From the NCBI RefSeq assembly GCF_026571515.1, contig NW_026856986.1, forward strand, positions 310,001 to 374,000: a DNA stretch of 64,000 bases. Direction: 5' to 3'. The DNA is from Ruditapes philippinarum (taxonomy: Eukaryota). A program made the translations under genes and the position numbers. Below the pieces are notes generated by a model that worked only from the letters and a program-made list of their open reading frames with translations, searched no databases and had not been told where the DNA came from. Position 1 is the stretch's first letter; every line of letters starts with the position of its first letter. Shown here piece by piece: positions 33,301-36,300 of this stretch.

Positions 33301-36300
33301 ATACTCCTGAGTCAACGATTTCGTAGCAATTTTGTCCAAACTGTGCTAACAGTTCTCCCCTTGTCTGGGCAAGCTGCTGTATTCTTTGCGGACATAATTT
33401 CACATGACCTATGCAGCAGTGTAAAACGTGATTAAAGTATTGTCTAGTTTAAAAAATATGTTAGTATGGCATCATCATGGTCCTTTTTAAGAGTTAAAGT
33501 GCAAAATAAATTCAAAACAATGTCTTTTTACTTAAGTTATATTCATATTTTAGTTGGCGGCACAAAACAAGCAGAAATTACAAGCAATCATATGCCAAAT
33601 TTATTTTATCAAAGATCGTAAACTACTTATATATGAAATTGGTAAACTAAATATAACATAACTTAAATTTTGATCAGACGTATATACCAGTAAAACAATT
33701 CAAACGAAAAGAACATACATCTTTAAGAAAAGAAAACATTAAATTACCTGTCAGTTCGAACATGGCAGTCGTTTGCGGAAAGGCTGACGTTTGCATTGAT
33801 AGAATTGTTTTTGTGAAAACCACTGAATTACTTGTCGTTTTTGTAAACAAAGACGAATCGGGAGTCGGCATAGTGGTGGATAAAGATGTGATATCTGACA
33901 AAGAAGTATAAATGCCGTGTTAAAAGCTTGTGTCTTGAAATCATTGGTTGAAATTGAATATTAAGCCCCTTTGTATATATAAATTGCAAACAAAATTTAA
34001 AAGAATGAGTTACAATCATATTTTACTAATATCTTCAGTATGAACATTGTTTCACTGGTTCGATGCTAGATGTTTTTAAAGAAAAACTACAGCATATTTT
34101 AGAGGTTGTATTATTAAAATCACTTCAAGATTGTACGTGTATCTGTATTTCTTTCACTTGTTATTTATTTTCTTTCTTATTTTTGTCTAGTTACATTCTA
34201 TTACAACTTTGAGCTCAAAATTTGATGTTTAAGCAATATTAAATATCCATAGATATCAGATATTGAGACTGGTTCAAAGAAACATTGCAATATGCAAGAG
34301 TATGCTGGATGCCTATTTAAGCAATAAGCTAAACATAAACTTTTTGTACAGTCAATAACACTTTCTTTGCTAGATGAACTGTATATTGCATACTTTTCTG
34401 GGCCTAAATCACGTTTGTGAGTGAGGAAAAAATACAATTGTTTTGTTTATTGTTGTGCATATCTATGTTTCTTTATTTCTGTCTACGATTTGTAACCCTT
34501 TTCGAATATGAAAGCAGTTGATATCTATATGGTGTTTAGAAAGTTTACGAGAACGTGGTAGTAATCTTTTATAGTTCAGTTTAGCCAAAATGTTATCAAG
34601 AATTATACCTAGATTGCATAGATCACAAAATCGAGGGCATATAATCCGGGCATGCTGAGTATCACTGCAAACATTTGTAACGGTATTGAGGTAGGCACAG
34701 TCGATTTTATGATCGTCAATACACGATGATGCTGAAAATATGGATTTGCAGTGCAATATTTTATGTGATACTTAAATAATGAAATCTCCATTGTAAAACT
34801 GATCCATAAGGCATTGCTACAAAGATACTTATTCAATACACTAAGAACTCTTAGTAAAATGTTAAAATCAAATGGATTGTATAGAAAGTGCTGATCTTTG
34901 TCGGCAAGCGAAAAGACATAAGTACATGTAAACATACACGCGCGAACGTACTAAATATTTAAGACTAACGCATAAAACATTGATAAAATGATCATACGTT
35001 TGAAATGTTCACAAAGTGGTTTATTGCATTTATCTGAGCTACAACACTCATGACAGTCATTATTTTGTCCTTGTAAACCACGGCCAACCAATCCTGTCTC
35101 AACTCCTCTATGAGTACCACATTGCTATAACAGAGTACAAAAGCACACACGTTCAACGTTATGGCAGACTTCTGAATAAGGTAAAATTAATTAACGTGGG
35201 TGGAATTTATATCAAAATCATAAAAGCTGAAACTTTGCTTATCACATGTACCATGTTACTTCTAATATTTAATGTTAGCTCTTATTTGTGTTGCTATTTT
35301 AAAAACAGCTTACTTTGATCATCAATTATTAAACCAAATGATGTAAATCAATAACGTAATTCAAAATTTAAATTGTTATTCACATGTTTGTCAATACATC
35401 CTAATGAATACATCCGATTCTGTCCAACTGTTGACAAATCATGGAAACATGACTGCAAAAAGCAAAAGTTGAATTAAATGATAACCTGAGTCATTTAATT
35501 TGATCCAGAAGCAGTGATTTCGAAATAAAAATATATACATATGAACGGTATAACAATTTTAATTATATTGATAATATACTGTAAGGTAAAAGTGATGTTT
35601 GAAACGATAAAATTGAAATACACAATTTCAGCTCTTAAGCATTAAAAATCATTAAAAAATATAACGCTTTCTTAGGAAAGTTTGGATACACTTGAATGTT
35701 GACCAAAGTTTAAGGATTTGAATATTGCAATTACATTCTGCGTAAAGTTAAATATTGTACAAACTAGAAGATAACTTATATAATATATGGCTTACTTGAC
35801 CAATGTTGCAATGAATAACATCGTTACACTGGTTGATATTTGTTGAGTTGGAGCATTTATAACACTCCAGCGATGCTATAAATGAAGAAGTACTAATTAA
35901 TTAGTTTTCAAAATAAAGAGATATTCAGGATTTTACACAAAAAATATTTGTATGTTTAGATAAAAACAGAATGAGCTAATTAAATTCAATAAGTAAACTG
36001 CTGAATTTTAATCTACCAGCTTTTAAAATAACCTATATAACAGATCATCTCTTAATATCATTTTTACTATAAAGCACTATCCTTTTGATCCAAAGAAGCA
36101 TACGTGAGAATCTTAATATAACTCGCTTTACAATGTTTTCATGCGAAAAGATATTCAAATAACATAAACTAACAGTTATTAAAAATAATAACTAATGTAA
36201 ATTCTATAAAGAATAATAAGCGTAATGATCAAAAACATGTTGAATAACTTACCTGCATTTCTTGTATAAGCAAACAAAATGAAACACACTTTGAGTGCTA

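What the first reader, a model, noticed from the sequence alone, without database searches (positions are those of the whole stretch)
34609..35875. Toxin-fold tandem: 12-Cys three-finger (Ly6/uPAR) domain fused directly to ShKT on a soluble lectin
Seen: SLECYKCSNSTNINQCNDVIHCNIGQSCFHDLSTVGQNRMYSLGCIDKHQCGTHRGVETGLVGRGLQGQNNDCHECCSSDKCNKPLCEHFK has the LxCxxC...CCxxxxCN signature plus two extra Cys and a long Gly-rich loop. It is followed by C-x7-C-x9-C-x9-CPRFCDLC (ShKT spacing). No transmembrane or GPI tail is visible. Known: three-finger proteins modulate nicotinic receptors, Shaker channels (Quiver/Sleepless) and complement (CD59); ShK blocks Kv channels, though most ShKT domains are not toxins. 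Inference: two potentially channel- or receptor-binding folds carried by a lectin, possibly against eukaryotic parasites.
Basis: partly seen in the sequence, partly recalled or inferred. Interest (0 to 1): 0.7.

Follow-up and report, generated by a model that had tools for sequence, protein, structure and literature searches.

The report
Clam lectin with shared three-finger head
This is a real, spliced clam gene whose predicted secreted protein carries a three-finger domain and an ShK-like domain in front of two lectin-like domains; the same front end sits on dozens of clam genes with other recognition domains, so it likely works as a shared adaptor rather than as a toxin.

Summary
Observation confirmed; toxin reading not supported. 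The finding is exons 3-6 of a 13-exon minus-strand gene (30351-37310, 536 aa, no internal stop): signal peptide, 12-Cys LU (three-finger) domain, ShK-like domain, Ser/Thr stalk, two C-type-lectin-like domains, no membrane anchor. RNA contigs show 10 of 12 splice joints, including ShK-stalk-lectin in one contig. Models of relatives give an LU fold; the ShK-like part scores below Pfam's cut-off. The head is a family module: 69 LU-exon and 132 ShK-exon matches in this genome, 61 of 69 adjacent, usually followed by thrombospondin repeats and C1q or fibrinogen domains; other clams add SRCR. This gene's head nests among C1q-tailed genes, so it was probably grafted onto a lectin tail. The ShK part lacks the Lys-Tyr dyad (0 of 26 relatives), is acidic and under purifying selection. 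Finger 3 often carries basic, convertase-like sites, but not universally, and this gene keeps only one. Neither lectin domain has EPN/QPD, so sugar binding is unproven. LU+C1q and LU+fibrinogen mollusc proteins are in print (2026); I found no paper on LU+ShK or LU+lectin. This scan noted what looks like the same family before on other DNA (e1-9255139; loop sites e1-9931810).

The parts
37292..37310 (-). Exon 1: start codon and first 6 residues of the predicted signal peptide
   Evidence: joint to exon 2 in RNA contigs X6, X8
36253..36297 (-). Exon 2: rest of the predicted signal peptide (phase 1-1); hydrophobicity modest, no signal-peptide predictor run
   Evidence: joints
35796..35875 (-). 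Exon 3: LU domain, Cys1-4 (finger 1)
   Evidence: (CD59 E 0.003, Toxin_TOLIP E 0.004, below cut-off)
35384..35452 (-). Exon 4: LU domain, Cys5-6 (finger 2), phase 0-0
34998..35124 (-). Exon 5: LU domain, Cys7-12; Gly-rich finger-3 loop with the family motif hydrophobic-hydrophobic-Gly-Arg; CxxCC-x4-CN-x3-C end
34609..34731 (-). Exon 6: ShK-like six-Cys domain (phase 1-1), no Lys-Tyr dyad
33748..33894 (-). Exon 7: Ser/Thr-rich stalk
   Evidence: (joints on both sides, one contig X6 record 13)
33130..33408 (-). Exon 8: C-type-lectin-like domain 1, first half
   Evidence: (Lectin_C E 8e-12)
32686..32865 (-). Exon 9: C-type-lectin-like domain 1, second half; RKD in place of EPN/QPD, WDD in place of WND
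32514..32546 (-). Exon 10: short inter-domain linker
31773..32057 (-). Exon 11: C-type-lectin-like domain 2, first half
   Evidence: (Lectin_C E 1e-15)
31350..31541 (-). Exon 12: C-type-lectin-like domain 2, second half; HIA in place of EPN/QPD, WDD
   Evidence: joint to exon 11 not among the rows shown
30351..30382 (-). Exon 13: 10-residue C-terminal tail ending Leu-Ile-Gly-stop, conserved in four array copies and in Mercenaria relatives
   Evidence: joint not among the rows shown, assigned from splice signals and relatives
39594..48150 (-). Tandem paralogue with LU, ShK-like, TSP1, stalk and two lectin-like domains; in-frame stop in its first LU exon in this assembly
50169..58975 (-). Tandem paralogue with LU head; ShK-like and TSP1 exons out of frame in this assembly
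19684..26920 (-). Tandem paralogue with first LU exons, ShK-like, TSP1 and lectin-like exons; third LU exon not found

Best explanation
This gene encodes a predicted secreted clam protein in which a conserved three-finger plus ShK-like head, shared with dozens of C1q- and fibrinogen-tailed genes, likely acts as a common adaptor, while the two lectin-like domains at the other end likely do the recognising. Shown: the gene, its splicing, the domain order, the family, its tails and purifying selection on the head. Inferred: the tail binds a surface (microbe, particle or matrix; probably not by the classical Ca2+/EPN route), the stalk holds it away from the head, and the head docks onto one conserved host partner (a haemocyte receptor, a protease or a matrix protein), so that many recognition domains feed one response, as the Ig domains of gastropod FREP/CREP/QREP lectins are arranged. 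Inferred with less weight: the flexible finger-3 loop is clipped at its Arg by a convertase or trypsin-like protease, the halves staying disulfide-linked. This copy probably arose when a head from a neighbouring LU-ShK-TSP1-C1q gene was joined through phase-1 introns to a double-lectin gene that elsewhere in the same array has another head.
For: Gene and splicing. Family size and tandem order: 69 and 132 matches, 61 of 69 adjacent. Tails: of 60 fetched loci, 24 reach a C1q and 13 a fibrinogen domain within the DNA fetched, none a lectin, 23 undetermined; database relatives end in C1q, fibrinogen, SRCR, C-type lectin or ShK repeats, and all 17 named of 20 clusters looked up are bivalves. All of these tails are domain types used in bivalve recognition proteins (established knowledge; PMC10672478, PMC12842671, PMC8905726 passages). 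Purifying selection on every head segment (dN/dS 0.10-0.43, 0.15-0.51 without Cys). No dyad, acidic ShK part. Graft: window heads sit in a supported 7-row clade (97/95) with C1q-tailed genes, two of them on the same contig (L024, L025), and are sister to Mercenaria P0068 (100/92); the same double-lectin tail carries a different head in neighbours. Loop: motif in 56 of 63 loops, second basic residue in 52 of 63, spacer length variable, Gly-Arg interchanging with Gly-Lys-Arg and Lys-Arg.
Against: No binding partner, tissue, induction or activity is shown for any member. Neither lectin-like domain has EPN or QPD, so carbohydrate binding is open. TSP1 repeats and a Ser/Thr stalk fit a mucus, matrix or adhesion role equally well. 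The loop motif count is partly circular (hits were found with a profile holding it); in loci picked by the ShK exon it is in only 12 of 36, and 16 of 34 have a Lys-Met/Leu loop instead; this gene lacks the second basic site. Both of my models are below pLDDT 50 from finger 3 to the end of the LU domain, and they are of relatives (P0006, P0008), not of this protein. The tree has 84 columns for 75 rows; dN/dS pairs may include alleles. Tails in the genome were assigned by adjacency, not by transcripts.
Confidence: 0.55

Rival explanations
1. Structural or mucosal role: the protein is a mucus, mantle or matrix component (particle sorting, adhesion, shell or extrapallial matrix) and the head cross-links or anchors it rather than signalling.
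For: TSP1 repeats in most relatives, Ser/Thr stalk, non-canonical lectin motifs; database names such as coadhesin-like and hemicentin-like (automatic names only); bivalve lectins also serve particle selection (PMC12842671 passage).
Against: The tails are the main expanded recognition domain types of bivalves and turn over repeatedly on the head tree (C1q label at least 9 forced changes, fibrinogen at least 4), more like a recognition repertoire than a structural protein; no tissue data here.
Confidence: 0.25
2. One reading: the LU and ShK-like domains bind ion channels or receptors of parasites or predators and the lectin targets them.
For: Both folds have channel-binding members (established knowledge); ShK-fold domains without the dyad can still modulate Kv channels (PMC6409789 passage); a basic site in the loop or near the head could allow processing.
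Against: No Lys-Tyr dyad in this gene or 26 of 26 relatives; acidic domain; purifying selection; best structural matches are cell-surface LU proteins GPIHBP1, PSCA, Lypd6b, CD59, tied within 1 Z with some toxins; no basic release site between head and stalk in the sequence.
Confidence: 0.08
3. The head is a folding, assembly or secretory-sorting unit (pro-domain-like), opened by cleavage in finger 3, with no extracellular partner.
For: Conserved position right after the signal peptide; basic sites in the loop; C1q and fibrinogen tails normally need trimerisation (established knowledge); the same hydrophobic-hydrophobic-Gly motif ends the protein on its own conserved exon.
Against: Some relatives drop the ShK-like part or have the head on SRCR or YWTD proteins that need no trimer; the basic sites are lost in a large subfamily.
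Confidence: 0.12

Closest known systems
Mollusc LU+C1q and LU+fibrinogen (FReD) proteins reported in PMC13719153 (Acta Naturae 2026; parts 1-3 of 4 of the text read; figures and supplements not available)
   Same: Three-finger domain at the front of a secreted mollusc protein with a C1q or fibrinogen domain; probably members of the same family.
   Different: The text and the Fig. 2 legend name no ShK, TSP1 or C-type lectin domain, no family size and no loop motif; each architecture is given as a single example. The unseen supplements may list these proteins.
Gastropod VIgL lectins: FREP, CREP, GREP, QREP (PMC9334734 section 7; PMC10672478 passages)
   Same: One kind of N-terminal module combined with fibrinogen, C-type lectin or C1q recognition domains in secreted proteins.
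   Different: The shared module here is LU+ShK-like, not immunoglobulin; bivalve, not gastropod; TSP1/EGF or Ser/Thr stalks; no somatic diversification tested.
Ly6/uPAR (LU) proteins such as GPIHBP1, PSCA, CD59, SLURP (PMC6600238 passages)
   Same: Ten consensus Cys, Asn after the tenth, phase-1 introns on both sides, three-finger topology in models of relatives.
   Different: Two extra Cys, three coding exons with two phase-0 introns instead of two exons, long finger-3 loop with basic sites, and use as a shuffled module in mosaic proteins, which that review says LU domains mostly are not.
ShK toxin and ShKT domains of multidomain proteins (PMC6409789 passages)
   Same: Six Cys ending C-x3-C-x2-C, two short helices predicted, Pfam ShK matched over its whole length.
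   Different: Below Pfam cut-off, no Lys-Tyr dyad, acidic, embedded; predicted structure is about as close to PLAC as to ShK (TM 0.56-0.61).
Bivalve multi-CRD C-type lectins (PMC12842671 passages; RpMR1-13 in PMC12321717 passages)
   Same: Secreted tandem lectin-like domains with non-canonical motifs; SPL-1/2 of another clam bind sugars with RPD/KPD motifs without needing Ca2+.
   Different: No ShK or Ly6 domain is mentioned in the review (0 occurrences each); the RpMR paper has 0 occurrences of ShK and its domain list names no three-finger domain.

Membership tests
LU (Ly6/uPAR) domain | Ten consensus Cys with Asn after the tenth | tested here: met
   12 Cys = 10 consensus positions plus one before the CC pair and one after CN
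LU (Ly6/uPAR) domain | Three-finger beta topology | tested here: met
   On relatives: Atlas model of P0006 TM 0.81 over 87 residues to a UPAR/Ly6 cluster; VIA Z 6.7, rmsd 2.5, 65 aligned to GPIHBP1, first 38 of 48 rows all LU-type, next row Z 2.8; Foldseek best PSCA, E 0.06-0.09. Finger 3 is low-confidence in my models.
LU (Ly6/uPAR) domain | Pfam clan score above cut-off | tested here: inconclusive
   Single exons below cut-off; relatives mostly below, P0035 above for UPAR_LY6 and P0051 at the cut-off for Toxin_TOLIP
LU (Ly6/uPAR) domain | Disulfide pattern 1-5, 2-3, 4-6, 7-8, 9-10 | not testable with these tools
   Model coordinates not returned; that region is under pLDDT 50
ShKT domain | Six-Cys pattern ending C-x3-C-x2-C | tested here: met
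ShKT domain | Pfam ShK above gathering score, ShK fold | tested here: inconclusive
   16.6 bits against 20.9, profile 1-37 of 37; 4 of 6 paralogue exons also match weakly; Atlas feature hit 0.88 and TM 0.60, under the bar
ShK-type Kv-channel toxin | Lys-Tyr dyad on a basic surface | tested here: not met
   Gln-His here (position counted back from the fourth Cys, by recalled ShK spacing); 0 of 26 relatives Lys-Tyr; net acidic
ShK-type Kv-channel toxin | Channel block | not testable with these tools
   needs electrophysiology
Ca2+-dependent C-type lectin | C-type lectin-like fold | tested here: met
   Lectin_C E 8e-12 and 1e-15 on the first-half exons; PDB matches of relative P0088
Ca2+-dependent C-type lectin | EPN/QPD plus WND at Ca2+ site 2 | tested here: not met
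   RKD/WDD and HIA/WDD; non-canonical bivalve motifs can still bind sugar
VIgL (FREP/CREP/QREP) | N-terminal immunoglobulin domain | tested here: not met
   The N-terminal domain is LU-type
GPI-anchored Ly6 / Quiver-Sleepless | C-terminal GPI signal, single LU domain | tested here: not met
   No hydrophobic tail; no QVR match for the window exons at E up to 1

The most novel reading that the evidence does not exclude
The LU+ShK-like head is a clam 'constant region': one conserved, protease-switched docking unit shared by a hundred or more C1q, fibrinogen, SRCR and lectin recognition proteins, cut in finger 3 into a two-chain, possibly amidated form that engages a single haemocyte receptor or protease cascade, a bivalve counterpart of antibody Fc or the collectin collagen stalk.
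Probability: 0.2. Interest if true: 0.8.

Novelty: new variant of a known kind. Interest (0 to 1): 0.45.

Why it matters
Clams carry hundreds of C1q, fibrinogen and lectin genes, and how binding is passed on to an effector without a collagen stalk is open. A single conserved head on many of them gives one concrete handle: find what the head binds. It also shows the LU domain acting as a shuffled module, which the LU review read here doubts. The family hides behind automatic names (coadhesin-like, hemicentin-like, thrombospondin-like) because both head domains fall below Pfam cut-offs. It is not evidence of a toxin.

Tried and rejected
One search used the wrong reading frame for the ShK-like exon; discarded and repeated. 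Word-index search with the third LU exon found nothing; the profile search did. No database protein for this exact gene was found, so folds are of relatives P0006 and P0008. Three-copy complex prediction of the P0006 head gave no verdict (score 0.00, alignment not used): no evidence either way. Independent origin of the lectin-tailed genes here and in Mya (P0044): tails only 21% identical and the head tree separates them, but the AU test does not reject one clade (p 0.10, two long rows left out), so it is not claimed as shown. The dN/dS value for the first lectin half rests on unaligned indels and is ignored. The wide VIA search on the second model was not run; Foldseek was used. Raw-read runs X21 and X23 gave only a few reads on the exons; nothing is drawn from it. 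PDB sequence search with the family alignment returned only TSP1 and C1q matches in the 60 rows shown of 104. QPX-induced clam transcripts named hemicentin-1, thrombospondin and mannose receptor (PMC4769524 passages) could not be tied to this family. Paper searches for a description of LU+ShK or LU+lectin in bivalves gave none; none of the 20 listed of 58 papers held 'ShK domain'. The library lacks most subscription journals. A Mytilus origin, my first guess, was dropped when named relatives were all clams.

Full report
1. What is in the sequence. The window is from a 1.4-Gb eukaryotic genome; RNA holders include mollusc libraries and named relatives are clams. With splice signals and phases I rebuilt a 13-exon gene, 37310 to 30351, 1611 nt, 536 residues, no internal stop: predicted signal peptide (exons 1-2), 12-Cys LU domain (exons 3-5), six-Cys ShK-like domain (exon 6), Ser/Thr stalk (exon 7), two C-type-lectin-like domains (exons 8-9, 11-12) and a 10-residue tail. 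There is no hydrophobic segment after the signal peptide (highest window 1.01). RNA contigs show 10 of the 12 joints: exons 1 to 8, exons 8 to 11 (the 10-11 joint only approximately); the last two joints are not among the rows shown. The joint from the ShK-like exon to the stalk is specific to this copy, because the other copies go on to a TSP1 exon, and one 284-nt contig (X6, record 13) runs from ShK-like exon through the stalk into the lectin exon. No contig spans the whole gene, and X6-X8 are RNA by guess only, though the joints have intron ends.

2. The folds. Pfam gives only sub-threshold matches for the head (CD59 E 0.003, Toxin_TOLIP E 0.004, ShK 16.6 bits against 20.9). The spliced protein was not found in the databases, so I folded relatives: P0006 and the Mercenaria protein P0008, whose isoform P0068 matches the window exons at 41, 41, 67 and 65%. 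Both models have confident fingers 1 and 2 and fall below pLDDT 50 from finger 3 to the end of the LU domain. The first 38 of 48 VIA rows are LU-type, best GPIHBP1 (Z 6.7, rmsd 2.5, 65 aligned), the next row scores 2.8; the Atlas model aligns 87 residues to a UPAR/Ly6 cluster at TM 0.81. LU is therefore well supported. The ShK-like part has the right Cys ending and two predicted helices; its structural matches to ShK (TM 0.60) and PLAC (0.56-0.57) are under the bar. I call it ShK-like.

3. It is a family module. The third LU exon has 69 matches (108 candidates scored) and the ShK-like exon 132 (150 of 166 scored) in this genome, and 61 of the 69 have the ShK-like exon within 7 kb downstream on the same strand; these are matches, not copy numbers. 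In 60 fetched loci the head is nearly always followed by TSP1 exons; 24 reach a C1q domain, 13 a fibrinogen domain (several after EGF exons), none a lectin, and 23 were not followed far enough. A profile search gave 67 proteins; their tails include C1q, fibrinogen, SRCR, YWTD+SRCR, C-type lectin and ShK repeats (49 proteins scanned in the two calls, most of them from these 67). Of 20 clusters looked up, 17 carry names: Mercenaria 4, Ruditapes 2, Mya 6, Dreissena 4, Potamilus 1 (a weak hit). The lectin tail is thus the exception.

4. Origin of this copy. On a tree of the third LU exon plus the ShK-like exon (75 rows, 84 columns), the two window heads are sister to Mercenaria P0068 (100/92) inside a 7-row clade (97/95) that holds C1q-tailed genes, two of them on the same contig about 75-90 kb away. 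The same double-lectin tail carries an unrelated Cys-containing head in neighbouring genes and in Mercenaria. All domain borders are phase 1. A graft of the head onto a resident lectin gene is the simplest reading (inference). Of four LU-headed copies in the window only this one is intact in the assembly.

5. Toxin or adaptor. The ShK dyad Lys22-Tyr23 (PMC6409789, passages) corresponds, counting back from the fourth Cys by recalled spacing, to Gln-His here; 0 of 26 relatives have Lys-Tyr, the commonest pair being His-His (8). The domain has 3 basic and 5 acidic residues. Pairwise dN/dS over disjoint close pairs is 0.15 for the ShK-like exon (21 pairs), 0.10 for the LU end, 0.27 for finger 1 and 0.43 for the loop; without Cys codons 0.22, 0.15, 0.38 and 0.51; pairs may include alleles. 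A conserved, acidic, dyad-less module on many different recognition tails fits a shared host-facing adaptor better than a weapon. The same paper warns that the dyad is neither needed nor sufficient, so channel activity stays possible.

6. The loop. In hits found with the loop-containing profile, 56 of 63 loops have hydrophobic-hydrophobic-Gly-Arg/Lys, 52 a second basic residue downstream and 39 Arg followed by Gln/Glu; the spacer runs from a few to over 20 residues, and Gly-Lys-Arg or Lys-Arg replaces Gly-Arg in some. This looks like convertase cleavage with an amidation signal (pattern recalled, not tested). The non-circular check weakens it: in 40 loci picked by the ShK-like exon, 36 had the LU end and only 12 the motif; by a second count 11 Gly-Arg, 6 Lys-Arg, 16 Lys-Met/Leu and 1 other of 34. 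This gene keeps the first Arg and lacks the second. A basic residue stays in nearly all loops, so a protease-sensitive loop is plausible; I put cleavage in this protein at about 0.4. The protein also ends in the same hydrophobic-hydrophobic-Gly motif on its own exon, in four window copies and three Mercenaria proteins; unexplained.

7. The lectin end. Both domains match Lectin_C but have RKD and HIA where EPN/QPD stands, with WDD. Bivalve lectins with odd motifs can bind sugars, some without Ca2+ (PMC12842671, passages), so binding is open.

8. Known and new. PMC13719153 (parts 1-3 of 4 read; figures and supplements not available) reports mollusc LU+C1q and LU+fibrinogen proteins, without ShK, TSP1 or lectin in its text or legend. 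Gastropod VIgLs are the closest design (PMC9334734 section 7; PMC10672478 passages). PMC6600238 (passages) doubts that LU is a true mobile module. The Mercenaria genome paper has 0 occurrences of ShK, TSP or thrombospondin. Nine searches found no account of LU+ShK or LU+lectin in bivalves. Earlier notes of this scan describe what appears to be the same family (e1-9255139) and Lys-Arg loops in another clam LU module (e1-9931810); I had entered my reading before seeing them, and they are not independent support.

9. Verdict. Real gene, correct folds, wrong emphasis: not a toxin tandem but one member of a large clam family with a common LU+ShK-like head, here on a lectin tail. New variant of a known kind; interest 0.45.

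Noticed in passing
window 3003-3116, 2472-2546, 13811-13918 (minus); L084, L085: Other genes of the same double-lectin array carry a different ~75-residue N-terminal domain with four Cys (as in P0086, P0089) that has no Pfam match at E up to 0.1; the array mixes two unrelated heads on one tail.
   Followed up: partly
window 30351-30382, 39594-39622, 50169-50197, 60638-60666: A dedicated last exon encodes a 10-residue tail ending in hydrophobic-hydrophobic-Gly-stop, conserved in Mercenaria; same motif as in the LU loop; possible amidation signal.
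   Followed up: partly
window 9829-10107 and 6557-6814 (minus): Lectin-like domains of the array copies near 6-11 kb have His-rich loops (runs such as four His in six residues), possibly metal-binding.
   Followed up: no
window about 46580-47750: A GC-richer insertion that looks by eye like a decayed reverse-transcriptase (LINE) fragment sits in the first intron of the paralogue with the premature stop; not tested.
   Followed up: no
window 55500-57540: The paralogue here has many single-base gaps and homopolymer-rich stretches; may be assembly error rather than pseudogenisation.
   Followed up: no
run X7, loose end at window 34609: One contig continues from the ShK-like exon into a TSP1 exon, so a TSP1-containing paralogue or allele is also spliced.
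   Followed up: no
L054, L056-L060, L062, L063, L065, L066, L068, L070-L072, L074, L076, L078, L079: A large subfamily replaces the Gly-Arg loop motif with Lys-Met or Lys-Leu and mixes C1q and fibrinogen tails within one clade.
   Followed up: partly
L023-L025, L081-L083 (G000:C5473:416500-463499): Three LU-TSP1x3-C1q genes (ShK-like exon found in two) lie in tandem on the opposite strand 45-90 kb beyond the window; two of them are among the closest relatives of the window heads in the tree.
   Followed up: yes
G000:C10088:44849-46901: Four weak ShK-like matches fall inside very long open frames (686 and 1278 aa), a single-exon multi-ShK protein.
   Followed up: no
P0087, P0088 and P0008/P0068 (Mercenaria): Head-only and tail-only models lie on a contig of the same length; possibly one orthologous gene split by annotation.
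   Followed up: no
window 30634-30800, 37500-38560, 39190-39500: Short interspersed repeats that attract thousands of partly matching RNA reads.
   Followed up: no
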